A stretch of 64,000 bases of DNA from the NCBI GenBank assembly GCA_964016885.1, contig OZ024741.1:271870001-271934000 (forward strand). Direction: 5' to 3'. Positions within the stretch are counted from its first letter, which is position 1, and every line of letters begins with the position of its first letter. The stretch comes from Eledone cirrhosa. Lineage: Eukaryota. Positions 276-57,820 of the stretch are shown piece after piece. Made by a program: the position numbers and the translations under genes. Below the pieces are notes generated by a model, which was not told where the DNA came from, made no database searches, and saw nothing but the letters and a program-made list of their open reading frames with translations.

Positions 276-3200
276 AGATGTTTGTTGTATCCAAGAGACC
301 AGGTGGCGGTATGGGTCTGCTAGATTCATCGTGGGTAAAGAACGATGCTATAAGCTTTTCTGGGTGGGAAATGACAATGGGCTGGGTGGAATAGGAATCA
401 TGGTAGCAGAAAAGTGGGCAGATAAGATAATAGACGTAAATAGAGTGAACGACAGAATAATTAAAATAAGACTTGTCCTCAATAGAACTACTGTGACAGT
501 AATATCTGCGTACGCACCCCAATCCGGACTGCCCGGCACTATAAAAGACAGATTCTATGAGACACTGATGCTCACTACCTCCCAAATAACTGACACTGAC
601 TATATAATTATTGCTAGCGACCTAAATGGTCACTTTGGACAACATTGCGACGGCTATGACGGAATCCATGGAGGCTATGGGTTTGGTACTAGAAATGAGG
701 AAGGCTCCAGAATCCTGGAATTCTGTGACGCAACCTAACTATCTGTAACACTAACTTAAAAAAACGAGACAATCACTTGATCACCTATAGATCGGGGGAA
801 CACACAAGCCAGGTAGATTATATCCTTACCAGGAGACGTGACAGAGTGTCTGTTGTAAACACTAAATCCCTCCCCCATGAAGAATGCACGTCTCAACATA
901 CTCATAATTAGCGACCTCATAGTCAGGACGAGACGTATTCGACAACAGAAGAGGACTATCCTCAGGAGAAAAATATGGAAATTAAAGGACCCCCACAGCC
1001 AGTAATAAATTTAAAAGCATATTACTTGATGCTTTTGATAGTAAGGAAGAGCAATTAGATTTGTACAATATAGAGGAACAGTGGGAATTCCTGAAAGCTA
1101 ACCTGCTGAAGGCGACAGATGAAACCTGTGGCTGGAGCAGGCCTATAGGCAGGAGGAGAGTAACTTGGTGGTGGAACTGTAAGGTGGAGAGGTCAATCAA
1201 GGCCAAATAGCAGGCTTGGAAAGCATGGCAGGATGGGGGAAGTAGAGAAAACTATCAAGTGGCCAGGAGGGAAGCTAGGAGACAAGTGTACTTCACAAGA
1301 AGGGAAGCAGAGAAAAGAAAGTTCAAGCATGTTCTACAACGTGAGGACCAAAAACGTGAGGTGTTCAGGATTGCTAGGCAATGTGTCAAGGAAAACAGTG
1401 ATATTGTCGGGGAGAAGTGTGTCCTTAATGATGATGGTGTACTTGCCATCACTGACGCTGATAAGAAGGTAGCTTGGAAGTGTCACTACGAAAGCTACTA
1501 AATGAGGAGAATAATTGGGAGAAAGACAGTCTCCCCCACATCGACCCAATAGAGGGACCAGCAGTGCAAGTTGAAGGTAGTATAATAAGTAAGGCGATCA
1601 AAGACATGAAGATGGGCAAGGCGGCCGGGCCTTCGGAAATAGTTGCCGAAATGCTCAAAGCATCTGGAGGCATTAAACTATAGAGGCATTAAATTAATTG
1701 ACCAGGTCATGAAGGTCACAGAAAAAGTAATAGCGCAACTAATCAGAGAGCGAATTGATCTAGACGAAATGCAGTTCGGGTTTGTGTCAGGTAAAAGTAC
1801 AACAGACGCTCTTTTCATTGTACGACAACTACAGGAGAAGTACCTAGCTAAAAGTAAACCCCTATACTTAGCTTTTGTTGACTTGGAGAAAGCCTTTGAC
1901 ATAGTACCCCGCTCGATTATCTAGTGGGCCCTTAGAAAACTAGGTGTTGATGAATGGCTTGTGAGAGCTATACAAGCCATGTATAAAGAAACAGTCAGCA
2001 AGGTTAGAATTAACGAATATAGTGAAGAGTTTAGCGTAAAAGTTTGTGTTCATCAGGGCTCCGTCCTTAGCCCCCTACTATTTATTATTGCCCTTCAGGC
2101 TATAACAGAGGAGTTCAAGACTGGCTGCCCATGGGAACTCCTATATGCAGATGATCTAATGCTCATAGCTGAATCAATGGACTAGAGAAGAAATTCCAAA
2201 CATGGAAGCATGGCCTAGAATCAAAAGGCCTTAAAATTAACCTGGCTAAGACTAAAGTTCTAGTTTGTAGGAAGGAAAATAGGGCACTGGTCCCATCTGG
2301 GAAATGGCCATGCTCAGTGTGTAGGAAAGGAGTAGGTAGAAACTCCATTTTATGTCCCAAATGCAAAGTATGGGTACATAAAAGATGTAGTGGGATCACA
2401 GGTAAGCTAACTAAGAATATAGATTTTATATGTGGCCGGTGCTTTGGTGCAATAAGTAGCAGCAAGTGCCCACAATACTAGCTCATTCCATTGCACAGAT
2501 GGTTCTATAGAAATAGTGGACAGCTTCCGTTACCTGGGTGACAAAATCAGCAGTGGGGGAGGGTGCTCTGAAAGTACAGTAGCTAGAGTCAGAACGGGAT
2601 GGAAAAAGTTCAGAGAGCTTATACCACTATTGGCCGCTAAAGGGTTCTCTCTAAAAATGAAAGGCAGGCTGTATGATGCCTGCATACGAACAGCAATGTT
2701 ACATGGCAGTGAGACCTGGGCATTGTGTGCAGAGGATATACGCAGACTGGAGAGAAACGAAGCTTGCATGCTCCATTGGATGTGTAATAGTAATATATGT
2801 GAACGGCAAAACTAAGGGAGAAATTAGAAATAAGAGGATCAGATGTTGTTTACTCGAGAGAAGACTACGTTGGTATGGTCACGTGATGCGCATGAAAGAC
2901 GACAGCTGTATAAAAAAGTGCAGGGCAATAAAAATAGACGGTAGCCCCGGAGTAGGCAGACCCAGAAAAACCTGGGACGACTTGATAAATTCCGACCTCA
3001 CACACTTACACCTCTCCAAGACAATGTCACTGGACCGAGAGCTTTGGCGCTAAACAGTAATAGAGTAGACCCGCCTTGCCTAAGTGCAAAGTGAAACCTA
3101 CTACAGTCAGTAGGCACCTCTAACAAAATACACCCCTGTCCCACTACCTCCACCCCATCCACACCACCCCTTTGAATGTAAAGTTATGTTGGTACCACAA

Positions 3201-3468
3201 CATCCAGCCCGAAACAAATGAGGTCGTGTAGGTGTCATGACAAAAAAACACACAGTCCACGCTGTAATGTGGCCGTGTAGGTAACAGGGTAAAAACCTCC
3301 CAGTTCCACACTGTAAATGTGGTTGGTGTTAGGAAGGGCATCCAGCCGTAGAAAACCCGCCAGACAGTCCTATGCGAGCAAGACAACCACTCTTGCCTCA
3401 AGTGGGAAAACTCCCATCCAAACCCATGCGAGCGTGGAATATGGACGTTAAACGATGATGATGATGAT
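276..3468 (+). mobile_element. RTE-clade LINE family A, copy A: 5'-truncated, decayed (APE endonuclease, RT, PHD-like finger, 3'UTR, (GAT)n tail)
   Basis: ORF fragments DVCCIQETRW..SAYAPQ..DLNGH (AP endonuclease), [30 protein letters not shown] (RT), RLRWYGHVMRM; many frameshifts and stops; ends ggacgttaaacgatgatgatgatgat. Confidence 0.95.
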
Positions 3469-3480
3469 ATATATATATAT

Positions 3481-3725
3481 AGCTTAAACAGCTGGAGCGC
3501 TTTCACCAGCAGTTTCTTCGTTGACTCTTGGGCCTACACTGAAAGATGTATGTCAGTGATGTTGAGGTCCTTGAAAGAAGTCACTGTAAGAGTATCGAGT
3601 TAACTTGCAACATTGTTTCAGACAGGTTGGTCATGTGGTTAGAATTGAGGACTCTAGGTTACCCAAACAACTCCTTTACGCTGAGCTGAGGGATGACAAA
3701 CGTTCACCTCATAAACCTAAGCTCT
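3481..3725 (+). mobile_element. Degenerate internal fragment of a family D-like RTE
   Basis: Manual translation LKQLERFHQQFLR*..VSDVEVLE..GHVVRIEDSRLPKQLLYAEL..PHKPKL matches the end of the 21287..22213 ORF. Confidence 0.85.
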
Positions 3726-3779
3726 TTCATGATTTATGCTTCTTTCACTAAATTTACACAACTGTTCTGAAAGAACTTA

Positions 3780-4051
3780 GCACCCCCACACAGTAAAGTG
3801 TAGGTATCATGGCAAAAAGCACCCAGCCTACACTATAAAGTGGTTATGTTGGTGTTAAGACAAAAAGCACTCAATACACACTGTAAATGACGTTGGCATT
3901 AGGAAGGGCATTCAGCTGTAGAAACCAACCCAGAAATAGTTCTGTATGAGCAAGACACTTTCACCTGACCCCCACTTGCTTCAAACGGAACAACCCGTCT
4001 AACCCATGCTAGCGTGGAAAATAGATGTTCGACAACAACGATGATGATGAT
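3780..4051 (+). mobile_element. 3' half of an RTE-tailed SINE / non-autonomous element
   Basis: aaaaagcaccca..cactgtaaa subrepeats, ttaggaagggcattcagctgtagaaacc, aacccatgctagcgtggaa stem-loop, (GAT)n tail. Confidence 0.8.
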
Positions 4052-4149
4052 ATATATGTGTGTGTGTGTATATATATATAATACAGAAGACCTGACCCCC
4101 CCCCCCCCACGGGTACAAGCCGAAGCTGAAGCATATAGACAATGTGCCT

Positions 4150-4428
4150 CCACCCCTTCCCACTGCAAAGTGGTCGTAGAGCTCCATGGCAAAAAAGCAC
4201 CCATCCCACACTGTAAAGTGGATGTGTAGGCGCTACGGAAAAAAAGTACCCAGTACTCACTGTAAATGAGGTTGGTGTTAGGAAGGGCATCGAGCTGTAG
4301 AAATCAAGCCAGAATCAGTTCCTGTATGAGCAAGACATGGTCAGCCGACCGGCTACTGCCCACAACAGGACAACCCGTCTAACCCATGCTAGCATGGAAG
4401 AACGGACGTAAAACAGTGATGATGATGA
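4150..4428 (+). mobile_element. 3' half of an RTE-tailed SINE / non-autonomous element (second copy)
   Basis: Same motif order as 3780-4051; ends aacccatgctagcatggaagaacggacgtaaaa..(GAT)n. Confidence 0.8.
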
Positions 4429-4751
4429 TATATATATATATAGAAAATAAATAGGATTTCGCTTCAAGCATAACTTTATACAAATATGTATAGAAATTTC
4501 GTATTTCTAAAGAAACACGGTTTTAGGAAGCCGTAGCTATGCAAACACCGGGGCTAATGCAGAAGCAAGGGGGACAAGCGTCTATGCATTTCAGGCTTGC
4601 CTGGCCTTCTTCAGGACAGTCCCTCCCACCGCTTGCTACTGTTGGACTTGAAAACAGTCGAGAATATATAGTTTTCTCATCTGTGTAAATGAGGTGATTA
4701 ATCTCATTTGCATATGAAGCTGCATAAGTTGGCTCAACTTATAATAGAAGA

Positions 4752-4896
4752 GAGTGCTTTATCTGCTTACACCTTAATTTATTGAGTGAGAACACTCAGA
4801 GAAATATACATGTAAATAAACAATAACAATACTATATATATATAAATGACAACTATATCTCTGTGTAAATTATGGTGTAAGCAGGATAAAGCACTC
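4752..4896. mobile_element. Small MITE-like element with ~30-bp inverted repeats
   Basis: gagtgctttatctgcttacaccttaattta (4752-4781) is near reverse-complementary to taaattatggtgtaagcaggataaagcactc (4866-4896). Confidence 0.6.
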
Positions 4897-5441
4897 GACA
4901 TTGGCTGTATGTATCCACGATTGATATGGGAATACATCTAACACAAATAAATGTTAAGGCCGGTTTGTGTAATTACATAATTTATGTATACATTTCAGTA
5001 TGATTAAATCAAAATATGTTTTAAAATTTTGATTATTAAAGTATAACTTTTACAGACGTTCTCATTAAATTATATTTTTAACTTCACATTTTTGGTGGTT
5101 GATAAAATAAGATACCAGTCACATATTGGTCTGATTCAATTAACTATACTCCTCTTCTCTCAGAATTTCTCACCTTGTACTAAAGTTAGTAATCATTTTT
5201 ATAGGGAGACCTCATGAAAGGTTTACTGTTTCTATAACAAATATGATTTTAACTTTTTCTTGCATTTTCTCGATCAAGCTAGCCATTATGTTAGATCTGT
5301 ATTTAAAAGCGTGACAAGTGTTGCTCTGAGACAACCAACCTTAAATGAGCCAAGTTGGTCACATCCCTTAGGAATAGCAATGTTACACAAGCCAAGTTGT
5401 TAAATTCCTATGAAACTACTAACTGGAAATTATCCAATACA

Positions 5442-5590
5442 TTTAACCCTTTTGTTAGTATGTTTCTAATGTGTTTCAAATAATTTAGAAAATAATGAAG
5501 AATTTGCATAGATTTAGTAATATAACTAACTTTCTTGTTAAGTTGGTGTTTACAACATAATTTAACAAAAGCTTTTAAGACTAAATGTTA
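5442..5590 (+). mobile_element. Remnant of a dispersed AT-rich repeat starting TTAACCCTTT (piggyBac-like end); related segments in opposite orientation at ~50490-50610, ~53795-53950, ~62010-62172
   Basis: Shared core tttagtaatataact..ttaagttggtgttt versus aaacaccagcttaata..agttatattactaaa; TTAA followed by CCC resembles piggyBac termini. Confidence 0.45.
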
Positions 5591-5606
5591 ATTATGTATA
5601 TATATA

Positions 5607-5900
5607 TCATCATCATTGTTTTTGTGTTCATTTTTCCATGCTTGCAAGGGATGGACGAGTGTTTTTCAGTGCCGCATCTCTCCACTCACCGCATTCCTTC
5701 GTCATCAACTCTGAGAGTCTGAGATTTGAGGTCAGCTCTCATCACCTCTGCCCAGGTCTTTCTTAGTTTACCTCTACTGTAGCTTCCTTCCACTGAGATT
5801 TCCTGCCACATCTTCAACCAGTGATCGTCATCCATGCGCATCAGATGTCCATACCAACACAGTTTTCTCTCCTGCGCACCACCTCGGATTCCTCTTACAT
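5607..5900 (-). mobile_element. RTE family J 3' fragment
   Basis: ORF 5686..5946 RGIRGGAQERKLCWYGHLMRMDDDHW..RGKLRKTWAEVMRADL is homologous to ORF 9959..10216; (ATC)n tail at 5607. Confidence 0.85.
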
Positions 5901-6204
5901 ATAAAAAGAAAAAAATCTGTTTTTTTTGTTTGTTACCTATAGACATCTGTGAAGTGTTAGGATCTTCCCAACATCTTCATAGTGAAGACCATTTGCTAAG
6001 ATAGCTAATGACATTTGGAAATTTGGGGATGGATTTCAACCAAATTTGGCATTTCAAATATAATCACAACCACAAGTATCTATATTTTGGATTGGTTCCT
6101 TTTATAAGAATGGAAGTGTAGAGGGAGAGGTCCACCCATGCAATGCCGGGTAACTCAACTAGTTTATAATAAAATATTCAGTGAATGCTTTGTTTCTGTT
6201 TCAG

Positions 6205-6453
6205 GTTATAACAGGTGGCAGCTATGATGTTGATATGGAGCTTTCAGCCCCAAATGGTCAGATACTGTATAAAGACACTAAGAAACAGTATGATACTTTC
6301 ACGTGGACAGCTGACCAAACTGGCGTGTATAAATTCTGCTTTAGTAACGAGTTCTCTACGTTCTCGCACAAGGTTGTCTACTTTGACTTCCAAGTGGGTG
6401 ACAAGGCTTCTCTCACTGCTGATATCGACAAACATGCCACAGCACTTACTTTG
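6205..6453 (+). CDS. TMED7: Internal coding exon of a p24-gamma (EMP24/GP25L, GOLD domain) cargo receptor, TMED7/TMED3-like; 249 bp, phase 0/0
   Basis: [69 protein letters not shown] matches the TMED7/TMED3 motifs VITGG.YDVD and [22 protein letters not shown]; acceptor tttgtttctgtttcag ends at 6204, donor gtgagt starts at 6454. TMED7 versus TMED3 cannot be resolved from one exon. Confidence 0.92.
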
Positions 6454-7221
6454 GTGAGTATATCATTACACTTTTACAACTATTAACTGCATTATAGGTT
6501 TTGGTCCTTAAAACAGGAGACCTGTCTCGTAATATACCCTGCTTGCTTTATTCTATTCAAGTGACCACTCATTGGTTCTTTTCCACTTCCAAATTTAACT
6601 ACTTTTTTCATTTATTTGTCTACTACTGCTTTTTAACACCGTTGCATGTTGAATTTTCTTTTGCATTGATGATTGTCATTTAATATTTTATTTTATATAC
6701 TTTCATATTGAATCTTTTTATTATCATTACTATTACTACTTGTTTTGGGGAATTAATTTTATGACAATAAAATTGACAGTGACTGTACTGTGTATATATC
6801 TCTGTCATAAAAGTTCAGGCTTAAGGTTTGTCTGTGACTGTGTTTTACTGTTAAACACAGGGACTCTCAAACTTTTAGACCATTGAAACCTTACATGGAA
6901 TCCTTGGCCCTTTTGTCAATCCCAGGCATGTTCAAAAATAAAGTCTAATCAACCATAATATGCCAAGTGTGTTTATATATTTATTTTTATATCTCCATCT
7001 GTAACTCTTTAAAATTTACACAAACATACAATGTATTTCCTATCTCAATCTTGTTACAATAAGTTCATTTTCCAGTCAAAAGGTCCTGGGTTCTAACTTT
7101 AAATTTGTTCTTTTAAATAGTTATTTCTCCGAGGTTACTCATATATTTAATCCTCTGTGATTTGTACATATAGGCTTAACATTTATGTAATTATATCTGA
7201 GAAACAGATTAATAAAATATC

Positions 7222-7420
7222 AAAATAGAAATATAAGCTTCGCTATAATATTTTTTACTATAATATAGTCTGATAAAGGGCCATATAAACCCACTGAACA
7301 GAAAAAGATGGGTATCGAACGTATGGGTGTTGATACCCATTTTTTTTCATTCTCTGGATTTATATGCCCCATTATTAGACTATATTATAGTCAGAAATAT
7401 TACAGCAGAGCTATTTCGAT
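7222..7420. mobile_element. Imperfect palindrome (~90-bp arms), hairpin MITE-like
   Basis: gctataatatt..actataatatagtctgataa..catataaaccca..gatgggtatc pairs with gatacccat..tggatttatatg..ttattagactatattatagt..aatattacagc. Confidence 0.75.
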
Positions 7421-7550
7421 TTCAATTCTACATTTTACTCGCCACATTCCAAACATACTTCCTTAATAAAATATCTTAATAAAAAATCACTTCCAATATA
7501 AAGTAAAGGATAACCCAAATTTTCCAGTTTGTTTGACTGTTCATATATTC

Positions 7551-7830
7551 AGTAATCCTGGTGTATATGGAGAACCAACCCTGGACTCCAATAAGTAAAT
7601 ATATTCAACGCTTTGGCTGTCATCAGTGACAGCACTTGTCCAGTAGTCCTGGTATATATGAAGAACCGATCTTCGACTCCAATAAATTAAATACATTCAA
7701 CACTGTTGCTGTCATTGATGGCACTGGTCCACTAGTCTTGGTATATATGGAGAACCAACCCTGGACACCAAAAATATGCATTCAACGCTATTGCCATTGT
7801 TACTGATGGCACAGGTCCACTAGTCTTAGT
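7551..7830. repeat. Diverged tandem repeat, ~90-bp unit x3
   Basis: Unit agtagtcctggtatatatggagaaccaaccctggactccaa..ttcaacgct..tgatggcactggtcc restarts at ~7551, 7642, 7731 and 7819. Confidence 0.85.
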
Positions 7831-8386
7831 AATAATATTCCAAGCTTGATGTTTGTCTATAACTGTGTTGACTGTTAAATACAGGATCATGAGACTTAGA
7901 TCAGTGGACCAATTCATGAAAATAAATAAATAAATCATTAAACAGAATCTAAGATAAAGCAGACAACAACAAAGACTAATTATATACATATCAAAAACCT
8001 ATATAAGCAAGTTGTATTTTATTGTATTTTATTTTATGCATTTTCATTTCTTGTGAAGTGTAATAAACATAAGACTCCTGCTTTTCAGCTATTGTAAAAT
8101 ATATATAGTTTTGAAATGTAGTCCTCCCATTGTTAATGACTATAATAATAGTGAATCACTATAAATAATAGTTGAGAAAAATGGGTGAAGTGACCGTTGA
8201 GAAGAAAAAAGGGTAGACAGATGTGCACTGGAGCTAGTGGTATCGACCATAAAGTACCAAACCATGATGACCTCCGACAGTTGACTGAGAAGGGACTGTA
8301 CTGTGTTTTGTCCATTTTTCCCTTATCTTTACTCACTGAGTTTGATTCATTGTATGATCTTAACCATGCAGGACACGTTTTCAAAT

Positions 8387-8810
8387 TTATATATATACAT
8401 ATGTATGTATGTATGTATATACCTGTATATATGTGTATGTATATGTGTATGTATATGTATATGTGTATGTATGTGTATGTATGTGTATGTGTATGTATGT
8501 GTATGTATATATATGTGTATGTATATATATGTGTATGTATATATATGTGTATGTATATATATGTGTATGTATATATATATATGTGTATGTATATATATAT
8601 ATATGTGTATGTATATATATATATATGTGTATGTATATATATATGTGTATGTATATATATATATATGTGTATGTATATATATATATATGTGTATGTATAT
8701 ATATATGTGTATGTATATATATATGTGTATGTATATATATATGTGTATGTATATATATATGTGTATGTATATATATATGTGTATGTATGTATATATGTGT
8801 ATGTATATGT
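8387..8810. repeat. (TA)n/(TATG)n microsatellite
   Basis: Direct inspection. Confidence 0.98.
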
Positions 8811-9086
8811 GGAGGCACGTGGCCTAGTGGTAAGAGTGTTGGACTTACGATCATAAGGTCGTGGGTTCGATTCTTGGGCTGCGTGTTGTTCTTGAGCAAA
8901 ACACTTCATTTCACGTTGCTCCAGTATACTCAGCTGAAAATGCGTACCAGCAATAGTTGGAGGTTTAACACTGCGATGGACTGGCATCCTGTCCAGGGGG
9001 GAGTCTTGTTTCTGTCGCTTCACGCCATGAAACCGGGATAAGCACCGGCCAAATGAGCCTTCTGGCTTAAGACAGACTTTAGACTT
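8811..9086 (+). mobile_element. tRNA-derived SINE with CORE-like domain (Arg-like head)
   Basis: A box TGGCCTAGTGG, anticodon-like loop TTACGAT, B box GGTTCGATTC, CORE-like cttgagcaaaacacttcatttc..cagctgaaaatg, tail gactttagactt. Confidence 0.88.
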
Positions 9087-9240
9087 TTTAGATGTATATG
9101 TATATATATATATGTATGTATCATCATCATGTATATATATGTATATGTATATATATATATGTGTGTGTATATATATATATATGTGTGTGTATGTATATGT
9201 CATCATCTTCATTTAACGTCCATCTTCCACGCTGTATATA

Positions 9241-9870
9241 AATAAATGTAATCTGAGTTTTTCGAATATTAATAATATTCGATTCGTTTTCAATTATGCA
9301 AACAAGCCTCAATTTTATAGCCATGTCAGTAGAATGAACCCTTCATTCTTGCTCTTGTGTTGGCATGTGAACAGAACTGCAGACACTAATGTTTCTGGGC
9401 ATCACCCTTCATCAGTACAGTTCACTGCTCACCTGCCAAACTGTCAGAGCTAGTGAAAATATATGCTATTTTCAAAAATACACAGTGACTGATTGGCCTG
9501 ATTTGCATATTAGCAGACTGGCTGATCAGTCAGATCTGCATATTAGCAGATCCACTGATCAGCCAGATTTGCATATCAGCAGACTGGCCAGTCAGTTTCC
9601 TGTATATGAGCGATAATTGGCCGCCTTTGCCAAATTCAAATAAAAAAGAAAATTTTTCACTCTACATGGCTGAATACAATAAATGTAATCTGAGTTTTTC
9701 GAATATTAATAATATTTGATTTGTTTGCAATTATACAAACAAGCCTCAATTTTATTGCCATGTCAGTAGAATGAACCCTTCATTCTTGCTCTTGTGTGGG
9801 CATGTGAACAGATGTTGGCATTGCAAACGAATAGAATGTTATTAATATTCAAAAAACTGAGATTACATTT
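9241..9870. mobile_element. Non-autonomous DNA element pair: long copy (9241-~9675) and short TIR-bounded copy (~9680-9870)
   Basis: ~135-bp direct repeat at 9241 and 9678; its first ~50 bp (aaatgtaatctgagtttttcgaatattaataa) recur inverted at ~9822-9870. Confidence 0.7.
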
Positions 9871-10234
9871 GATGTGCAATGCTAATGTGCATGAACGACC
9901 AAGCATAGATGAGTTGAGAAAGAAACTGGGTATAAGAGGGATACGTTGAGGTTGTGGGGTGCAGGAGAGAAGGCTGAGATGGTATGGACATGTGATGCGC
10001 ATGGAGGATGACCGCTGGGTAAAGAAGTGTCAAGAAATACCAGTAGAAGGAAGACGCAGTAGAGGTAGACCACGAAAAACATGGGTGGAGGTGGTGAGAG
10101 CAGACCTCAGATCATTGAAACTCACCGAGGAGAAGACGAAGGACCGTGACAAGTGGAGAGATGCTGTGCTGAATAGGACCCGTCCAGCTCTTGCAAGCAG
10201 GGAAAAGTGGACGTAAAATGATGATGATGATGAT
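9871..10234 (+). mobile_element. RTE family J 3' fragment; ORF runs into the terminal stem-loop
   Basis: MCNANVHERPSIDELRKKLGIRGI..QERRLRWYGHVMRM..RGRPRKTW..ASREKWT* followed immediately by (GAT)n. Confidence 0.92.
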
Positions 10235-10600
10235 GTGTATGTATATATATAGAAATTGAAAAGAATGAAACAAAATTTCATTTCTCACTCTTAGTACGGC
10301 TGATACCTAAATATAAGTATGTATACGTACATACTTATATGTGTACAGACGCACAGTAGTATGTATATATATACATAGATGCACACATATATATATATGT
10401 ACGTATAGGTTTACCGAACATTTATTATAATGTTTGGTTTGTTTGTAAACAAACAGCCCGAATTACGCAGTACAGTGCTCGGCAACCATCGTCGCCCTTT
10501 TGTTCAACACTGACACAGGAACGATGTACTAGTTTCAAGCTTATTAGCTATCGTCAGCATCGTATACCTTTCTGTCAGATGATTGAACATCTGAAAGTAT

Positions 10601-11587
10601 ACACAAGTTTCATCAGTAGCCTGCAGTAAGTTGTCACGTAAGAAATTCCAGTTATTATCTATGTCAGACGTCTCTAAATTGTCTTCTTTTTCATCATACA
10701 CATCTTGAAGGGCTTTCCGAAATTTGTATTTTAGTGAAAGGTCTTTTAGCTTCCAGACCTTTCTTCTCCACACCTTCCTGTATGTCTCATTCCATCTCTT
10801 GCTTACGGAGATATCACTAACGACTAACCTATGCTGTGGGGTACATTCTTCCCCAGGGTATGCCTTGGTATTAGACACTATCTGCCTGTCCCACTGCCTA
10901 ACTAGTAAGAAGTCAATCTGGCGTATGTGCTCGCCTGATTCGTAGGTTATTAGGTGGTTGGCAGGTTTCTGGAAGTTAGTGTTGCAAATAGTCAGTGTAC
11001 TTGCATCACAAAATTCAAGAAGTCTCACTCCTTCTTCATTTCTTGAGCCGTAACCATACACACCGTATACCCCAGTGTAACCATCCTGGAGCTGTCCAAA
11101 ATGACCATTGAAGTCCCCTCCGAGCATAATGATGTCTCCGTCCTCTGTCATTGCGGCTGTTTGTAAAAGTTTCTCGTAAAAGCAGTCTTTCTCTTCTTTG
11201 CCTAGGGCTGCTTGGGGAGCATAAGCAGAGATGATTGTCAGTAGTCTCCTGCCTACAACTAATCTAAGCTTAGTTATTCGATTATTAACTCGAACTACCT
11301 CTATTGTCTTATTGATCCATCTCTCAGCCAGGAAAATGCCTACTTCCCCTAACCCATCATCCTTACCTACTCAGGAAAGCTTATAGCTAAGACGTTTGCC
11401 TACGACTAGTCTCGCAGAGGCACCTCTCCATCTTACCTCTCGCATGCAGCACACATCCACATGCCTTCTCTCCAGCATCTCCACTATTTCACCAGATCTA
11501 CCTGTGAGAGTGCCAACATTAAGTGTGGCAACTCTGAGATGCGACGTCTTCATATTTTTGTTGTTCCTATAGATTTGTTGCTGTGCT
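10601..11587 (-). mobile_element. RTE endonuclease region of a family distinct from A (possibly the 5' part of family J), decayed
   Basis: LRVATLNVGTLTGRSGEIVEMLERRHVDVCCM; GGDFNGHFG..GYGSRNEEG..ITYESG..QIDFLL..ECTPQHRLVVSD. Confidence 0.9.
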
Positions 11588-11635
11588 GGGTATTTTGTTA
11601 GATGCCTACTGGCTGTAGTAAGTTTTACTATGTAT

Positions 11636-13356
11636 TTAGGTAAGGCGGGTCTTCTCTGTTACTGAGTACCGCCAAAGGTCTCGGTCCAGTGACATTGTCT
11701 TGGAGAGGTGTAAGTGTGTGAGGTCGGAGTTTATCAGCTCGTCCCAGGATTTTCTAGGTCTGCCTATTCCGTGGCTACCGTCTATCTTTATTGCCCTGCA
11801 CTTTGTTATACAGCTATCGACTTTCATGCGCATCAGGTGTCCATACCAACGTAGCCTTCTCTCGAGTAAACAACATCTGATCCCTCTTATTTCTAATTTT
11901 TTCCTTAGTTCGTTTATGCTTTGCCGTTCACGTATATTACTGTTACACATCCAGCGGAGCATGCAAGCTTCGTTCCTCTCTAGTCTGCGTATATCCTCTG
12001 CACACAATGCCCAGGTCTCACTGCCATGCAACATTGCTGTTCGTATGCAGGCATCGTACAACCTGCCTTTCATTTTTAGGGAGAACCCTTTAGCAGCTAA
12101 TAGTGGTATAAGCTCTCTGAACTTTTTCCAACCAGTTCTGACTCTAGCTACTGTACTTTCAGAGCACCCTCCCCCACTGCTGATTTTATCACCCAGGTAA
12201 CGGAAACTGTCCACTATTTCTATAGAACCCTCTGCGCAATTGAAAGAGCTAGTATTTTGTGGGCACTTGCTGCTACTTATTGCACCAGAGCACCGGCCAC
12301 ATGTAAAATCTATGTTCTTAGTTAGCTTACCTGTGATCCCACTACATCTTTTATGCACCCATACTTTGCATTTAGGACATAAAATGGAGTTTCTACCTAC
12401 GCCTTTCCTACACACCGAGCACGACCATTTCTCAGAAGGGACCACCGCCTTATTTTCTTTCCTACAAACTAGAACTTTAGTCTTAGCCAGGTTAATTTTA
12501 AGGCCTTTTGATTCTAGGCCGTGCTTCCATGTTTGGAATTTCTTCTCTAGCTCGGCCATTGATTCCGCTATGAGTGTCAGGTCGTCTGCGTATAGGAGTT
12601 CCCATGGGCAGCCTGTCTTGAACTCCTCTGTTATAGCCTGAAGGGCAATAATAAATAGTAGGGGGCTGAGAACAGAGCCCTGATGGACGCCAACTTTTAC
12701 GCTAAACTCTTCACTATATTCGTTGTTAATTCTAACCTTGCTGACTGTTTCTTTATACATGGCTTGTATAGCTCTCACAAGCCATTCGTCAACGCCTAGT
12801 TTTCTAAGAGCCCACCAGATAATGGAGCGGGGGACTCTGTCGAAGGCTTTCTCCAAGTCGACAAAAGCTAAGTAGAGGGGTTTACCTTTAGCTAGGTACT
12901 TCTGTAGTTGTCGTACAATGAAAAGAGCGTCTCTGCTACCTTTGCCTGACACAAACCCGAACTGCATTTCATCTAGGTCAATTCTCTCTCTGATTAGTTG
13001 TGCTATTACTTTTTCCGTGACCTTCATGACCTGGTCGATTAATTTAATGCCTCTATAGTTACTCCTATCTAGGGCGTCTCCTTTACCCTTATAACAGTTA
13101 ACGATGATGCTGCTATGCCAGTCCTTCGGAACAACCCCATTCTGTACGACTTGGTTAACTATGCGGGTGACCATGGTGTGTCCCACCGTGCCAGATGCCT
13201 TCAGCATCTCAGCAACTATTTCCGATGGCCCAGCCGCCTTACCCGTCTTCATATCCTTGATTGCCTTACTTATTATACTCCCCTCGACTAACACTGCTGG
13301 TCCCTCTATTGGGTCGATATGGGGGAGACTGTCTTTCTCCCATTTATTCTCCTCAT
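11636..13356 (-). pseudogene. RTE ORF C-terminal half: reverse transcriptase, PHD-like finger and C-terminal domain
   Basis: [55 protein letters not shown]. Confidence 0.95.
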
Positions 13357-14793
13357 TTAGTAGTGACACTTCCAAGCTACCTTCTTATCAGCGTCGGTGA
13401 TGGCAAGTATGCCATCATCGTTAAGTACACACTTCTCCCCGACAATATCACGGTTTTCCTTGACGCATTGCCTAGCAATCCTGAACACCTCACGTTTTTG
13501 GTCCTCGCGTTGTAGAACATGCTTGAACTTTCTTTCCTCAGCTTCCCTTCTTGCTAAGTACACTTGTCTCCTAGCTTCCCTCCTGGCCACTTGATAGTCT
13601 TCTCTACTTCCCCCATCCTGCCATACTTTCCAAGCCTGCTTTTTGGCCTTGATTGACCTCTCCACCTTACAGTTCCACCACCATGTTACTCTCCTCCTGC
13701 CTACAGGCCTGCTCCAGCCACAGACTTCGTCTCTCGCCATCAGCAGGTTTGCTTTCAGAAATTCCCACTGTCCCTCTATATTGTCCAACTCTAAATGTTC
13801 TTCCTTACTGTCGAAAGCATCAAGTAATATGCTTTGAAATTTATTTCTGGCTGTGGGGTCCTTTAGCTTCCATATTTTTCTCCTGAGGATAGTCCTCTTC
13901 TGCTGTCGAGTACGTCTCGTCCTGACTATGAGGTCGCTAATTATCAGTCTATGTTGGGAGGTGCATTCTTCATGGGGGAGGGATTTAGTGTTTACAACAG
14001 ACACTCGGTCACGTCTTCTGGTAAGGATATAATCTACCTGGCTTGTGTGTTCCCCGGATCTATAGGTGATCAGGTGATTGTCACGTTTTTTGAAGTTAGT
14101 GTTACAGATAGTTAGGTTATTTGCATCACAGAATTCCAGGATTCTGGAGCCTTCCTCATTTCTAGTACCAAACCCATAGCCTCCATGGATTTCGTCGTAG
14201 CCGTCACAATGTTGTCCAACGTGACCGTTTAGGTCGCCTGCAATAATTATATAGTCACTGTCGGTTATTTGGGAGGTAGTGAGCATCAGTGTCTCATAGA
14301 ATCTGTCTTTTATAGTGCTGGGCAGTCCGGATTGGGGTGCGTACGCGGATATTACTGTCACCGTAGTTCTATTGAGGACAAGTCTTATTTTAATTATTCT
14401 GTCGTTCACTCTATTTACGTCTATTATCTTATCTGCCCACTTTTCTGCTACCATGATTCCTACTCCACCCAGCCCATTGTCGTTTCCCACCCAGAAAAGC
14501 TTATAGCATCGTTTTCTACCCACAATGTATCTAGCAGATCCACCCCTCCACCTGGTCTCTTGAATACAACAAACATCGACCTCCTTACGTTCAAGCATTT
14601 CTAAAACCTCGTTAGAGCGACCCTTTAAGGTGCCTACATTCAAGGTACCAAATCTGAAGTTTTGGATTGCGTGTGGGGGGTTGGAAAGGTGGGGAGCGGA
14701 GGGAGATGGGGTTATGTTAGCCATCCGCGGCCGAAACAAAGAAGCATGCTCGCATTTTCGTCCTCGAGGTGTGATTGTCTTTAACTTTGGCAT
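13357..14793 (-). pseudogene. RTE ORF N-terminal half: AP-like endonuclease and linker
   Basis: FGTLNVGTL, CCIQETRW, SAYAPQ, IAGDLNGHVG, SQVDYIL, CTSQHRLI. Confidence 0.93.
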
Positions 14794-15265
14794 TGTCGCT
14801 GAGCGTCCAGATTCTTCAACTCTCCGGAACTCCGTAGTCCTTCCATCCTACATATCGAAGGCGACCAGGTAAGCGATAGTATAGGCCTCTGGCTTATGAT
14901 TGGTCCACGTAATAATAATGGTGGTGTGTGATGGCGGGAGGGAAGGGTGGTGTGTGGGGGCGGAGGGAGGGGTGGTGTGTGTGGGGGGGGGAGGGGCAGG
15001 TAGGGGTGTTGAGTTGTTAGCGAGAAGATAGGTTTAAGTGAGAACCCCGTATTAACGAACAAAAATACAAGATTTGTTTAGTAAATATACGTCAGAAACT
15101 TCCGTATTTTTACAAGCATGAGAGAAATACAAGAGATTTGTTTTGGAAAATACATGGGGAATGGAAAGAGGATAGAAAAAAAAATGCTATTGTAAGGACT
15201 AAAAATGCTGTTGGAAGGACTGACTATGGAGTTAGGCGTATGTTAGAAGAGGTGGAAAAAATGAG

Positions 15266-20994
<5,729 letters not shown>

Positions 20995-23014: not shown

Positions 23015-23087
<73 letters not shown>

Positions 23088-23188
23088 TTTTTTTTTTATT
23101 TATTTATTTATTTATTTATTTTATTTATTTATTTTTTTTTTTTTTATTGTGCAATGGCCATACTCGATAACGAGGGGGCAGCCATCAT
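20995..23188 (+). mobile_element. RTE family D, 5'-truncated: RT, three C-terminal C2H2 fingers, microsatellite-filled 3'UTR, terminal stem-loop
   Basis: [51 protein letters not shown]; fingers CSVC..HLRSH, CQTC..HAKVH, CRLC..HIRSQH; end gtgcaatggccatactcgataacgagggggcagccatcat shared with 44157-44196. Confidence 0.92.
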
Positions 23189-34922
<11,734 letters not shown>

Positions 34923-36926
34923 TATGAAGACGGGTAAGGCGGCTGGGCCTCCGGAAATAGTTGCTGAGATGCTGAAGGCATATGGCTCGGTGGGACACAC
35001 CTTGGTCACCCGGATAGTTAACCAAGTCGTACAGAATGGGGTTGTTCCGAAGGACTGGTATAGCAGCATCATCGTTAACTGTTATAAGGGTAAAGGAGAT
35101 GCCCTAGATAGGAGTAACTATAGAGGCATTAAACTAATCGACCAGGTCATGCAGGTCACGGAAAAAGTAATAGCGCAACTAATCAGAGAGAGAATTGACC
35201 TAGATGACATGCAGTTCGGGTTTGTGTCGGGCAAAAGTACCACAGACGCTCTTTGCATTGTACGTCAACTACAGGAGAAGTACCTAACTAAAGGTAAACC
35301 CCTCTACTTAGCTTTTGTCGACTTGGAGAAAGCCTTCGACAGTGTCCCCCGTTCCATTATCTGGTGGGCCCTTAGAAAACTAGGTGTCGACGAATGGCTT
35401 GTGAGAGCTATACAAGCCATGTATAAAGAAACAGTCAGCAAGGTTAGAATTAACAACGAATATAGTGAAGAGTTTACCGTAAAAGTTGGCGTCCATCAGG
35501 GCTCTGTTCTCCCCCCTACTATTTATTATTGCCCTTCAGGCTATAACAGAGGAGTTCAAGACCGGCTGCCCATGGGAACTCCTATACGCAGACGACCTGA
35601 CACTCATAGCTGAATCAATGGCCGAGCTAGAGAAGAAATTCCAAACATGGAAGCACGGCTTAGAATCAAAAGGCCTTAAAATTAACCTGGCTAAGACTAA
35701 AGTTCTAGTTTGTAGGAAAGAAAATAAGGCGGTGGTCCCTTCCGGGAAATGGCCATGCTCAGTGTGTAGGAAAGGCGTAGGTAGAAACTCCATTTTATGT
35801 CCCAAATGCAAAGTATGGGTGCATAAAAGATGTAGTGGGATCACAGGTAAGCTAACTAAGAACTTAGATTTTACATGTGGGCGGTGCTCTGGTGCAATAA
35901 GTAGCAGCGAGTGCCCACAAAATACTAACTCTTTCAATTGCGCAGAGGGCTCTATAGAAATAGTTGACAGCTTCCGTTACCTGGGTGACAAAATCAGCAG
36001 TGGGGGGAGGGTGCTCCGAAAGTACAGTAGCTAGAGTCAGAACTGGATGGAAAAAGTTCAGAGAGCTTATACCACTATTAGCCGCTAAAGGGTTCTCCCT
36101 AAAAATGAAAAGCAGGTTGTATGATGCCTGCATACGAACAGCAATGTTGCATGGCAGCGAGACCTGGGCATTGTGCGCAGAGGATATACGCAGACTAGAG
36201 AGGAACGAAGCTTGCATGCTCCGCTGGATGTGTAATAGTAATATACGTGAACGGCAAAGCATAAACGAACTAAGGAAAAAATTAGAAATAAGAGGGATCA
36301 GATGTTGTTTACTCGAGAGAAGGCTACGTTGGTACGGACACGTGATGCGCATGAAAGTCGATAGCTGTATAACAAACTGCAGGGCAATAAAGATAGACGG
36401 TAGCCACGGAATAGGCAGACCTAGAAAATCCTGGGACGAGCTGATAAACTCCGACCTCACACACTTACACCTCTCCAAGAGAATGTCACTGGACCGAGAC
36501 CTTTGGCGGTACTCAGTAATAGAGAAGACCCGCCTTACCTAAATACATAGTAAAACCTACTACAGCCAGTAGGCATCTCTAACAAAATACACCCCCGTCC
36601 CACCACCCACACCCCCCATCCACACCACCCCCTCCTATGTAAAGTTATGTTGGTGCCACAACATCCAGGCCGAAACAAATGAGATCGTGTAGGTGTCACG
36701 ACAAAAAAACACACAGTCCATGCTGTAATGTGGCCGTGTAGGCAACACGGTAAAAACCTCCCAGTCCCACACTGTAAATGTGGTTGGTGTTAGGAAGGGT
36801 ATCCAACTGTAGAAAACCCACCAGACAGTTCTATGCGAGCAAGACAACCACTCTTGCCTCAAGTGGGAATACCCCAGTCCAAACCCATGCAAGCGTGGAA
36901 CACGGACGTTAAACGTTGATGATGAT
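34923..36926 (+). mobile_element. RTE family A, copy E: 5'-truncated at the RT start, complete 3' end
   Basis: [22 protein letters not shown] with two frameshifts; full 3'UTR and gttgatgatgat tail. Confidence 0.95.
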
Positions 36927-37009
36927 ATAGTTAAAAAAAAATGAAAACGAAATTTCATTTCTCACTCTTAGTACGGCACTTACTTAAATGTAAGTATACA
37001 CACATACTT

Positions 37010-41224: not shown

Positions 41225-41550
41225 ATCATCATCATCATTTCATTTAACATCCACTTTTTCCCTGCTTGCAAGGGTGGGACGGGAACTGATTCTGGCTTGA
41301 TTTCTACAGCTGGATGCCCTTCCTTACAGTGAGTGCTGGGTGCTTTTTTTTCCGTGGCGCCTACGCGTCCACTTTGCAGTGGAATGATAGGAACCCCAGT
41401 CCCTATCATCTCATTTCTGCAGCTGAGTAAACTGGAGCAATGTGAAATAAAGTGACTTGCTCAAGGAAACATTACATCACCCGGTCTGAGAATTGAACTC
41501 ACAACCTTTCCATTGCAAGGCCAATCCTCTAACCACTAAGCAATGCGCCT
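41225..41550 (-). mobile_element. tRNA-CORE SINE with family-J RTE tail (S2 family)
   Basis: Reverse complement of 55241-55625 with internal deletions. Confidence 0.88.
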
Positions 41551-41970
41551 ACATATACATACACATACACATACATATATGTATATATATACACACATAT
41601 ACACACATACATACACACATATACATACACATACACACATATATACATATACATACACATATATACATATATATACATATACATATATATATATGCATCT
41701 ACACATACATACACACACATATATAGATATATACATATATAGATATATATACACACACACACATATATACATATACATATATATATGCATATACATACAC
41801 ACACATAGATATATACATGTACATACACATTTATATATATATACATACATATACATATATACATACACATATAGATATATACGTAGACATATAGATATAT
41901 ACATATATCTATATGTATATACATATATCTATATGTATATGTTTATGTCTATCTCTATATGTGTATGTAT
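41551..41970. repeat. (TA)n/(CATA)n array (C polarity on + strand)
   Basis: Direct inspection. Confidence 0.95.
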
Positions 41971-43238
41971 ATCATCATCATCATCTTCGTTTAACGTCCA
42001 TATTCCACTCTCGCATTGGTTTGGACGGGAGTTTTCCCACTTGAGGCAAGAGTGGTTGTCTTGCTCGCATAGGACTGTCTGGCAGGTTTTCTACGGCTGG
42101 ATACCCTTCCTAACATCAACCACATTTACAGTGTGGAACTGGGAGGTTTTTACCTTGTTACCTACACGGCCACATTACAGCGTGGACTGTGTGTTTTTTT
42201 GTCATGACACCTACACGACCTCATTTGTTTCGGGCTGGATGTTGTGGTACCAACATAACTTTACATTGAAAGGGGTGGTGTGGATGGGGTGGGGGTAGTG
42301 GGACGGGGGTGTATTTTGTTAGAGGTGCCTACTGACTGTAGTAGGTTTCTCTATTACTGTGTAACGCCAAAGATCTCGGTCCAGTGACATTGTCTTGGAG
42401 AGGTGTGTGTGAGGTCGGAATTTATCAAGTCGTCCCAGGTTTTTCTGTGTCTGCCTACTCCGTGGCTACCGTCTATTTTTATTGCCCTGCACTTTTTTAT
42501 ACAGCTGTTGTCTTTCATGCGCATCACGTGTCCATACCAACTTAGTCTTCTCTCGAGTAAACAACATCTGATCCCTCTTATTTCTAATTTCTCTCTTAGT
42601 TCGTATATGCTTTGCCGTTCACGTATATTACTATTACACATCCAGCGGAGCATGCAAGCTTCGTTTCTCTCCAGTCTGCGTATATCCTCTGCACACAATG
42701 CCCAGGTCTCACTGCCATGTAACATTGCTGTTCGTATGCAGGCATCATACAGCCTGCCTTTCATTTTTAGAGAGAACCCTTTAGCGGCCAATAGTGGTAT
42801 AAGCTCTCTGAACTTTTTCCATCCCGTTCTGACTCTAGCTACTGTACTTTCAGAGCACCCTCCCCCACTGCTGATTTTGTCACCCAGGTAACGGAAGCTG
42901 TCCACTATTTCTATAGAACCATCTGTGCAATGGAATGAGCTAGTATTGTGGGCACTTGCTGCTACTTATTGCACCAAAGCACCGGCCACATATAAAATCT
43001 ATATTCTTAGTTAGCTTACCTGTGATCCCACTACAACTTTTATGTACCCATACTTTGCATTTGGGACAAAAAATGGAGTTTCTACCTACTCCTTTCCTAC
43101 ACACTGAGCATGGCCATTTCCCAGATGGGACCGGTGCTCTATTTTCCTTCCTACAAACTAGAACTTTAATCTTAGACAAGTTAACTTTAAGGCCTTTTGA
43201 TTCTAGGCCATGCTTCCATGTTTGGAATTTCATCTCTA
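41971..43238 (-). mobile_element. RTE family A, copy F: 5'-truncated after YADD, complete 3' end
   Basis: KFQTWKHGLES..PHD..FRYLG..RLSWYGHVMRM, 3'UTR and (ATC)n tail. Confidence 0.95.
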
Positions 43239-46333: not shown

Positions 46334-46671
46334 TCATCATCATCATCATTTCATTTCATTTTACGTCCACTTTTCCCTGCTTGCAAGGGTGGGACGGGAA
46401 CTGATTCTGGCTTGATTTCTACAGCTGGATGCCCTTCCTAACACCAACCTCATTTACAGTGAGTGCTGGGTGCTTTTCTTCTTGCCGTGGCACCTCCACG
46501 AATGATAGGGATCCCAGTCCCTATAATCTCATTTCTACAGCTGAGTAAACTGGAGCAACGTGAAATAAAGTGTCTTGCTCAAGGAAACAACACATCACCC
46601 GGTCTGAGAATTGAACTCACAACCTTTCGATTGCAAAGCCAATGCTCTAACCACTAAGCCATATGCCTCCA
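46334..46671 (-). mobile_element. S2 SINE copy
   Basis: (ATC)n tail, ttttccctgcttgcaag, CORE-like block, ccactaagcca (A box, reverse). Confidence 0.9.
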
Positions 46672-55756: not shown

Positions 55757-56330
55757 TAGGGAGAAATTAGGAATAAGAAGGATCAGATGTTGTTTACTCG
55801 AGAAGACTACGTTGGTACGGTCACGTGATGCGCATGAAAGACGACAGCTGTATAAAAAAGTGCAGGGCGATAAAAATAGAAGGTAGCCACGGAGTAGGAA
55901 GACCCAGAAAAACCTGGGGCGACTTGATAAATTCCGACCTCACACACTTACACCTCTCCAAGACAATGTCACTGGACCGAGAGCTTTGGCGCTACACAGT
56001 GATACAGAAGACCCGCCTTGCCTAAGTACAAAGTGAAACCTACTACAGTCAGTAGGCACCTCTAACAAAATACACCCCCGTCCCACCACCCACACCCCCC
56101 ATCCAGACCACCCCCTCCTATGTAAAGTTATGTTGGTGCCACAACATCCAGTTCGAAACAAATGAGGTCGTGTAGGTGCCACGACAAAAAAACACACAGT
56201 CCACACTGTCATGTGGCCGTGTAGGTAACACGGTAAAAACCTCGCAGTCCACACTGTAAACGTGGTTGGTGTTAGGAAGGGCATCCAGCCGTAGAAAACC
56301 CGCCAGACAGTCCTATACGAGCAGGACAAC
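55757..56330 (+). mobile_element. RTE family A, copy H: 3' fragment lacking the terminal stem-loop and tail
   Basis: REKLGIRRIRCC..MMRMKDDSC..KTRLA*; the 3'UTR stops at gagcaggacaac. Confidence 0.92.
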
Positions 56331-56565
56331 AAATATTGTATGTATATATGTATATATATTGTATGTATATATGTATATATATTGTATGTATATATGTATA
56401 TATATTGTATGTATATATGTATATATATTGTATGTATATATGTATATATATTGTATGTATATATGTATATATATTGTATGTATATATGTATATATATTGT
56501 ATGTACATATGTATGTATATATGTATGTATATATGTATGTATATATATATGTATATATATATATG

Positions 56566-56597
<32 letters not shown>

Positions 56598-56894
56598 TAT
56601 GTATGTATATATATATGTATATATATATATTATATATATATGTGTATATATATTATATATATATATGTGTATATATATTATATATATATTGTATGTATAT
56701 ATGTATATATATTGTATGTATATATATATGTATATATATATATATATTATATATGTGTATATATATTATATATATATATTGTATGTATATATGTATGTAT
56801 GTATATATGTATGTATGTATGTATATATGTATGTATGTATATATATATGTATTATATATATATGTATATATATATATTATATATATATATATGT
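56331..56894. repeat. (TA)n array with a TATTGTATG unit
   Basis: Direct inspection. Confidence 0.95.
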
Positions 56895-57820
56895 ATAAAA
56901 TTAGCAGTGGGGGAGGGTGCTCTGAAAGTACAGTAGCTAGAGTCAGAACTGGGTGGAAAAAGTTCAGAGAGCTTATACCACTATTAGCCGCTAAAGGGTT
57001 CTCCCTAAAAATGAAAGGCAGGTTGTACGATGCCTGCATACGAACAGCAATGTTGCATGGCAGTGAGACCTGGGCATTGTGTGCAGAGGATATATGCAGA
57101 CTAGAAAGAAACGAAGCTTGCATGCTCCGCTGGATGTGTAATAGTAATATACGTGAACGACAAAGCATAAACGAACTAAGGAAAAAATTAGAAATAAGAG
57201 GGATCAGATGTTGTTTACTCGAGAGAAGGCTACGTTGGTATGGTTACGTGATGCGCATGAAAGACGACAGCTGTATAAAAAAGTGCATGGCGATAAAAAT
57301 AGACGGTAGCCACGGAGTAGGAAGACCCAGAAAAACCTGGGGCGACTTGATAAATTCCGACCTCACACACTTACACCTCTCCAAGACAATGTCACTGGAC
57401 CGAGAGCTTTGGCGCTACACAGTAATAGAGAAGACCCGCCTTACCTAAATACAAAGTAAAACCTGCTACAGTCAGTAGGCATCTCTAACAAAATACACCC
57501 CCACCCCATCCACACCGCCCCCTTCTATGTAAAGTTATGTTGGTGCCACAACATCCAGGCCGAAACAAATGAGATCGTGTAGGTGTCACGACAAAAAAAA
57601 CACACAGTCCACGCTGTAATGTGGCCGTGTAGGCAACACGGTAAAAACCTCCCAGACCCACACTGTAAATGTGGTTGGTGTTAGGAAGGGCATCCAACTG
57701 TAGAAAACCTGCCAGACAGTCCTATGCGAGCAAGACAATCACTCTTGCCTCAAGTGGGAAAACCCCCGTCCAAACCCATGCACGCGTGGAACACGGACGT
57801 TAAACGTTGATGATGATGAT
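56895..57820 (+). mobile_element. RTE family A, copy I: 3' fragment with complete end
   Basis: KISSGGGCSES..EKTRLT*, 3'UTR, gttgatgatgatgat. Confidence 0.95.

What the first reader, a model, noticed from the sequence alone, without database searches (positions are those of the whole stretch)
276..14580. Stop-free 3n exon bracketed by kilobases of inverted RTE homology: circRNA / rolling-circle / exon-skipping architecture
Seen: the 249-nt TMED7-like exon is phase 0/0, has no in-frame stop and contains an in-frame ATG (DVDMEL). It lies between RTE copy A (+, 276-3468) and copy B (-, 11588-14580), which are reverse-complementary over roughly 2.8 kb. A second inverted pair, family J at 5607-5900 (-) and 9871-10234 (+), nests inside. 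Known: inverted repeats in flanking introns promote back-splicing and skipping, and are ADAR substrates. Inference: a 249-nt circle would carry an endless 83-codon GOLD-fragment ORF, and skipping would be in frame. Editing of the duplex could tune both outcomes.
Basis: partly seen in the sequence, partly recalled or inferred. Interest (0 to 1): 0.72.

Follow-up and report, generated by a model that had tools for sequence, protein, structure and literature searches.

The report
Exon between two inverted LINE copies
An ordinary octopus cargo-receptor gene (TMED7-like) has its middle exon between two opposite-facing copies of a very common retrotransposon; this is likely a chance arrangement whose paired RNA would be edited, and no circular or exon-skipped RNA was seen.

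Summary
The geometry is real. The 249-nt exon (6205-6453) is exon 2 of an octopod TMED7/p24-gamma gene. Exon 1 lies 12.3 kb upstream; two alternative last exons lie 63 and 77 kb downstream. RTE-type LINE copy A (+, intron 1) and copy B (-, intron 2) are complementary over 2,840 nt at 91-93%. That is the strongest cross-exon pair among 71 loci tested (0 of 70 controls reach 2 kb).

It still looks like chance. The family fills 3.1% of control DNA, which predicts about 0.1% of exons (likely hundreds) with such a pair. A and B are no more alike than random copies. The stop-free 3n property is ancestral: 9 of 9 mollusc isoform pairs share the 3' boundary. The one RNA-like run shows an unbroken exon 1-exon 2 contig with no back-splice or skip joint, but contigs drop rare forms. 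In O. vulgaris only 296 high-confidence circRNAs were reported.

Most likely: a constitutive exon plus a transient dsRNA that ADAR would edit, with any circle a by-product. Rolling-circle protein is very unlikely. Side finding: duplicated alternative last exons shared across molluscs.

The parts
277..3468 (+). RTE-type LINE copy A, 5'-truncated, decayed frames, (GAT)n tail; lies in intron 1
3798..4426 (+). two short 3'-end fragments related to the same LINE 3' UTR (70-80% to A)
5607..5900 (-). J- : 3' end of an older RTE subfamily, 305 nt upstream of the acceptor
6205..6453 (+). TMED7/TMED3-like (p24-gamma) exon 2, 249 nt, phase 0/0, GOLD-domain core; exon 1 is at G000:C2:271863713-271863889, last exons 3a at 271939699-271939923 and 3b at 271953033-271953266
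9871..10234 (+). J+ : 3' end of an older RTE subfamily; pairs weakly with J- (77-80%)
10504..11552 (-). older RTE endonuclease fragment abutting the 3' end of B (64% to A and B)
11588..14930 (-). RTE-type LINE copy B, endonuclease plus RT in two long open frames (496 and 582 aa), 3' end missing; lies in intron 2; main partner of A
34930..36930 (+). copy C, same family, 96% to B over 1663 nt: competing partner inside intron 2
41960..43235 (-). copy D, same family, 94% to A over 1279 nt (second cross-exon partner) and 90% to C
55761..57815 (+). two further 3' fragments of the family (55761-56330, 56900-57815), inverted relative to B and D

Best explanation
Exon 2 of an octopod TMED7-like gene is spliced to exon 1 in the normal way and sits between two inverted copies of an abundant RTE-type LINE that likely landed there independently by chance; in the nascent pre-mRNA they are predicted to form a transient 2.8-kb duplex that ADAR would likely hyper-edit, and any exon-2 circle or skipped message would likely be a rare by-product. 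Steps: (1) shown: gene structure, copy positions, complementarity, exon 1-exon 2 splicing. (2) Inferred: A and B pair once B is transcribed, 5-8 kb after the exon, but only while intron 1 is still attached; removal of intron 1 uses up the acceptor and ends any chance of back-splicing, after which B can pair with C and other copies in intron 2. (3) Inferred from other species: young-repeat duplexes are the main ADAR targets and editing opposes back-splicing. (4) Inferred: the exon-2 donor then joins last exon 3a or 3b.
For: Family A covers 43,859 of 1,400,000 control bases; copies of 2 kb or more in 7 of 140 half-loci give P(opposite pair) about 0.0013 (0.0002-0.005) per exon. A-B identity (91%) equals the median of A against unlinked copies (91.1%, n=25 alignments; 13 of 25 higher), so no homogenisation. 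Inverted and direct cross-exon homology are about equally common in controls (44 vs 46 of 70 at 250 nt or more; 15 vs 12 at 1 kb or more). The exon's 3' boundary is shared by 9 of 9 bivalve and gastropod isoform pairs examined, far older than copies 7-9% apart. Run X1 covers only the exon; one 1056-nt contig (depth 104) runs from exon 1 through exon 2 unbroken, ends 6 non-aligning letters past the donor, and no go-back or skip joint is listed. Inverted alignments within intron 2 (8482 nt summed) exceed those across the exon (5804 nt). O. vulgaris circRNAs are low overall, 296 high-quality circles (PMC9699675 passages and supplement). Young repeats are the main A-to-I targets in metazoans (PMC9989829 passages).
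Against: The A/B pair is the strongest of 71 loci (2847 nt at 85% or better; 0 of 70 controls reach 2 kb, 2 of 70 reach 1 kb). It is B's most stable and earliest partner (about -4900 vs -3100 kcal/mol for B/C, rough block sums), so competition does not clearly defeat it. An exon 2 with long introns on both sides is the typical circRNA setting (long flanking introns: PMC6283421 passage; exon-2 bias recalled). The RNA evidence is one run of unrecorded kind, kept as contigs, which drop rare forms; it lacks intronic cover and so looks poly(A)-selected (inferred), which would miss circles. Editing of A/B was not observed; it could not be tested.
Confidence: 0.76

Rival explanations
1. The A/B duplex drives an abundant, ADAR-tuned exon-2 circRNA (non-coding), lowering linear TMED7 output in some tissues.
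For: Longest, earliest-forming duplex brackets the only internal coding exon; 12.3-kb and 63-kb flanking introns leave the donor waiting; 58 of 123 mismatches are A.C, which editing would stabilise rather than melt (counts; preference recalled); pairs across flanking introns promote circles (PMC6283421 passage).
Against: No go-back joint and no contig break at the acceptor in X1 (weak); inner ends of the stem are 3.1 and 5.1 kb from the exon; the nested J pair is weak (longest run 14 nt); few circles in octopus; copies are young, so likely lineage-restricted.
Confidence: 0.14
2. The duplex loops out exon 2 and gives a regulated in-frame skipped isoform (exon 1 joined to 3a or 3b).
For: Phase 0/0, so skipping keeps the frame and gives about 133 aa with signal peptide, coiled coil, TM and tail.
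Against: It removes 83 of 216 aa, Pfam positions 30-111 of 182, including the exon's only cysteine, which by recall forms the GOLD disulfide; the X1 contig is unbroken at the exon 1/exon 2 joint.
Confidence: 0.05
3. The circle is translated round and round into a poly-GOLD-fragment protein with a function.
For: Endless 83-codon frame with one ATG; rolling-circle translation exists (circ-EGFR/rtEGFR; PMC11437038 and PMC11724312 passages).
Against: Every symmetric coding exon gives such a frame; P(at least one Met in 83 codons) is 0.86-0.90, and this Met is simply conserved in the linear protein (90 of 120 relatives). The product would lack a signal peptide and part of the fold. It needs a circle, which was not seen.
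Confidence: 0.02
4. The repeat pairings in intron 2 bias the choice between last exons 3a and 3b rather than circularisation.
For: Two alternative last exons exist and intron 2 is rich in inverted copies.
Against: Only 788 nt of short or weak inverted alignments span exon 3a; the alternative exons occur across molluscs, long before these copies.
Confidence: 0.03

Closest known systems
Inverted-repeat-flanked circRNA exons (IRAlu across flanking introns; PMC6283421 passage)
   Same: Internal exon, long flanking introns, inverted same-family repeats across the exon, with competing pairs inside one intron.
   Different: The repeats are 3-kb RTE LINEs, not 300-nt SINEs; they sit 3-5 kb from the exon; no back-splice junction has been seen.
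ADAR hyper-edited young-repeat duplexes in metazoan introns (PMC9989829 passages; octopus intronic editing, PMC9699675 passage)
   Same: Young repeats (91-93% alike), inverted, in one transcript.
   Different: Editing here is predicted, not observed; the arms lie in different introns, 8.5 kb apart at their inner ends.
Rolling-circle translated circRNAs (circ-EGFR/rtEGFR; reviews PMC11437038, PMC11724312, passages)
   Same: Length divisible by three, no stop, in-frame ATG.
   Different: No circle, ribosome or peptide evidence; the frame properties are ancestral to the linear gene.
Octopus RTE LINEs (RTE-2_OV, PMC9115989 passages)
   Same: One long endonuclease plus RT reading frame, no separate ORF1 seen, abundant in an octopod.
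   Different: Copy B carries a weak PHD-like finger after the RT core and is broken into two frames; RTE-2_OV is described with a C2H2 finger. Sequences were not compared.
TMED7/TMED3 (p24-gamma) cargo receptors, PF01105
   Same: Exon 2 is 95% identical to O. sinensis TMED7; signal peptide, GOLD, coiled coil, TM, short tail.
   Different: Two duplicated alternative last exons, as in annotated isoforms of other molluscs.

Membership tests
Repeat-driven exonic circRNA locus | Internal exon with usable acceptor and donor | tested here: met
   AG/GT sites, exon 1 upstream, last exons downstream
Repeat-driven exonic circRNA locus | Reverse-complementary sequence in both directly flanking introns | tested here: met
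   A in intron 1, B in intron 2, 2,840 paired columns
Repeat-driven exonic circRNA locus | Cross-exon pairing outweighs within-intron pairing | tested here: inconclusive
   Summed alignments 5804 nt across vs 8482 nt within intron 2, but A/B is the strongest single duplex
Repeat-driven exonic circRNA locus | Back-splice junction in RNA | tested here: inconclusive
   None in contigs of one RNA-like run; contigs drop rare forms
Repeat-driven exonic circRNA locus | RNase R resistance and dependence on the repeats | not testable with these tools
   needs bench work
Rolling-circle translated circRNA | 3n length, no stop, start codon | tested here: met
   commonplace
Rolling-circle translated circRNA | Ribosome footprints or peptides across the junction | not testable with these tools
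   no raw RNA, Ribo-seq or proteomics available
ADAR hyper-editing substrate | Long, near-perfect intramolecular duplex possible | tested here: met
   30 paired runs of 30 nt or more, longest 104 nt
ADAR hyper-editing substrate | A-to-G clusters in RNA over A and B | not testable with these tools
RTE-clade non-LTR retrotransposon | APE endonuclease and RT domains in one long coding region | tested here: met
   PF03372 E 1.5e-10, PF00078 E 6.6e-31 in two adjoining frames of B
RTE-clade non-LTR retrotransposon | Short tandem-repeat 3' tail, no ORF1 (feature recalled) | tested here: met
   (GAT)n tails on A, C, D and both J copies; no long ORF upstream of B's coding region on its strand
RTE-clade non-LTR retrotransposon | RT phylogeny inside the RTE clade | not tested
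   no reference RT set was fetched; 'RTE' rests on structure
p24-gamma / TMED7 | PF01105 and best hits to TMED7/TMED3 | tested here: met

The most novel reading that the evidence does not exclude
A young inverted RTE LINE pair turns the GOLD exon of an octopod p24 cargo receptor into an ADAR-switched circRNA that is translated by rolling circle into a poly-GOLD protein or throttles linear TMED7, a LINE-made, editing-controlled regulatory switch in a cephalopod.
Probability: 0.05. Interest if true: 0.7.

Novelty: new member of a known kind. Interest (0 to 1): 0.18.

Why it matters
If the best explanation holds it matters little: it is one of likely hundreds of exons bracketed by inverted LINEs in this genome. 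Its use is as a test locus. It has an unusually long, clean cross-exon duplex around a single internal exon, in a lineage with high ADAR activity and few circRNAs, so it can test directly whether editing suppresses LINE-driven back-splicing in cephalopods. An abundant circle here would show that LINE pairs kilobases from an exon can drive circularisation despite ADAR.

Tried and rejected
The repeat finder on the whole window was swamped by (TA)n tracts; masked BLAST was used instead. Run search listed no holder on record as RNA: no evidence either way; X1 was judged RNA-like only from its exon-limited cover and spliced contig. Laying all 4 runs on last exon 3b gave 0 records in every run, DNA-like ones included, so it is uninformative and use of 3b is not shown directly. 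The tree of last exons (29 rows, 10 of 37 chosen proteins dropped by a motif filter) left the deep branches open, so one versus several duplications is undecided. The sliding null in the 264-kb region (11% of positions have 1 kb or more of inverted homology within 10 kb each side, 53% within 20 kb) includes the target pair and uses crude clipping, so it was not used as a control. Paper searches for TMED7 + circRNA (6 listings, none on a TMED7 circle by title or abstract start) and for p24 alternative last exons found nothing relevant in listings. The O. vulgaris circRNA list could not be checked for this gene: the data archive of PMC9699675 is held cut and may bear on the claim. Earlier findings of this scan: none. 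Rejected: an upstream exon or start between A and the exon; selection for A/B similarity; J as an independent strong pair.

Full report
1. Observation. The exon at 6205-6453 is 249 nt, bounded by AG and GT, reads 83 codons without a stop, has one in-frame ATG, and as a circle is open only in that frame. It matches PF01105 and is 95% identical to Octopus sinensis TMED7, so the genome is an octopod's. It is the only close copy found in G000; the other hit is an intronless paralog at 40%. Copies A (+) and B (-) align over 1397 nt at 90.8% and 1476 nt at 91.4%. That is 2649 Watson-Crick pairs, 68 G.U and 123 mismatches, with 30 paired runs of 30 nt or more. The J pair is 77-80% alike with a longest run of 14 nt.

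2. The gene. With 200 kb of flanking sequence and homologues as queries, coding exon 1 (177 nt) ends 12,315 nt upstream of exon 2. Two alternative last exons, 3a and 3b, begin 63,245 and 76,579 nt downstream. So A is in intron 1, B in intron 2, and exon 2 is the only internal coding exon. All junctions are phase 0. In 9 of 9 bivalve and gastropod isoform pairs that I picked from the 120 hits, the two proteins diverge at or within 3 residues after the exon 2/3 boundary. The 3' boundary and the two last exons are therefore old molluscan features; that the 5' boundary is equally old is inferred from conserved flanking residues.

3. The repeats. B holds endonuclease (PF03372, E 1.5e-10) and RT (PF00078, E 6.6e-31) in two adjoining open frames of 496 and 582 aa. 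A, C, D and both J copies end in (GAT)n. This fits an RTE-type LINE, as described in octopus (PMC9115989, passages; PMC13282606, passages); I did not test RT phylogeny. Intron 2 holds more copies in both orientations. B is 96% alike to C (34930-36590) over 1663 nt, and A is 94% alike to D (41989-43235). Inverted alignments of 150 nt or more sum to 5804 nt across the exon and 8482 nt within intron 2. Against my reading, A/B is the most stable single duplex (rough block sums -4876 vs -3056 kcal/mol for B/C) and forms first.

4. Base rate. I took 70 control loci of 20 kb centred on exon matches, one per gene, picked by hand: 50 of 138 kinase, 14 of 116 Ras and 6 of 52 DEAD matches. Neighbouring exons were not annotated, so control pairs need not lie in directly flanking introns. 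Inverted homology across the centre reached 250 nt in 44 of 70 and 1 kb in 15 of 70; direct homology did so in 46 and 12 of 70. At 85% identity or better, 2 of 70 reached 1 kb and 0 of 70 reached 2 kb, against 2847 nt at the target. The target is thus in the tail (upper 95% bound 4%). But family A fills 3.1% of control DNA, with 2 kb or more in 7 of 140 half-loci and 1 kb or more in 17 of 140. Independent insertion then gives an opposite-facing pair at 0.13% (0.02-0.5%) and 0.7% of exons. With on the order of 10^5 exons (recalled magnitude) that is likely hundreds of such loci, and this one was chosen by a scan of many windows. A is no closer to B (91%) than to unlinked copies (median 91.1%, n=25 alignments), so there is no sign of conversion or selection for pairing.

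5. The endless frame. Any symmetric coding exon gives one; roughly a third of internal exons are symmetric (recalled, not measured here). A Met in 83 codons is expected with P 0.86-0.90, and this Met is present in 90 of 120 relatives as part of the linear protein. Skipping would remove Pfam positions 30-111 of 182 and leave about 133 of 216 aa.

6. RNA. Four runs of one study hold the exon, none on record as RNA. X2-X4 cover exon and intron evenly, like DNA. X1 covers the exon only: one contig of 1056 nt, depth 104, whose upstream loose end is the end of exon 1. It is unbroken at the acceptor, where a retained skip or back-splice would branch the graph (inferred). It stops 6 letters past the donor. 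Those letters are not shown, but they do not align to the intron, whose first two letters equal the exon's own first two, so they are neither intron nor back-splice. Six is exactly the prefix shared by exons 3a and 3b, which suggests both are used (inferred). No go-back or skip joint touches the exon. This is weak evidence: contigs drop rare forms and the library looks poly(A)-type. Editing of A and B was not tested. The lay on exon 3b was blank in all four runs and says nothing.

7. Literature. In O. vulgaris circRNAs were low overall, 296 passed filters, and most editing fell in introns and 3' UTRs (PMC9699675, passages and supplement PDF passages). Young repeats are the main A-to-I targets across metazoans (PMC9989829, passages). 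Cross-intron versus within-intron competition is described for Alu pairs (PMC6283421, passages). Rolling-circle translation is documented (PMC11437038, PMC11724312, passages). Searches found no paper on a TMED7 circle or on p24 alternative last exons, judged from listings only.

8. Mechanism and verdict. Most likely (0.76) the exon is constitutive, the pair arose by independent insertion, and it forms a short-lived duplex in nascent RNA that ADAR edits, with circles or skips at by-product level. Shown: structure, complementarity, base rate, linear splicing. Inferred: duplex formation, editing, kinetics. Rivals: abundant non-coding circle 0.14, regulated skipping 0.05, effect on last-exon choice 0.03, functional rolling-circle protein 0.02. 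It works like an inverted-repeat-flanked exon but is not shown to be a circRNA locus. Interest 0.18.

Noticed in passing
L011:5699-5923 and L012:9033-9266 (G000:C2:271939699 and 271953033): Two duplicated alternative last exons (coiled coil, TM, tail) of the p24-gamma gene; matching isoform pairs exist in bivalves and gastropods (9 of 9 pairs examined). No paper found in two searches. Arguably more interesting than the finding itself.
   Followed up: partly
L002:1200-2019 (G000:C14:22085525-22086103): Intronless TMED7-like paralog with an intact 254-codon frame, 39% identical: retrocopy-like.
   Followed up: no
window 12290-12420 (-): PHD-like Cys/His finger after the RT core of copy B (PF00628 E 4e-5, 23.9 bits vs cut-off 24).
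   Followed up: no
window 54812-55142; 7223-7422; 2884-3164 nt upstream of the window (L003): Local palindromes (97%, 77% and 91% self-complementary), MITE-like, that would fold as hairpins in the pre-mRNA.
   Followed up: no
window 15260-21000, 22770-34930 and others: Very long (TA)n/(TATG)n tracts; 28,455 of 64,000 bases masked as simple repeat.
   Followed up: no
window 60586-61277: Tandem array with a 64-nt period, about 95% alike.
   Followed up: no
window 8815-8936, 41420-41545, 46538-46669, 47973-48107, 55247-55387, 61676-61817: A short dispersed repeat family (71-81% alike), possibly SINE-like; not tested.
   Followed up: no
protein P0036 (Branchiostoma): After the exon 2 boundary it continues with a second exon-2-like stretch instead of a last exon; may be a gene-model join or tandem exon.
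   Followed up: no
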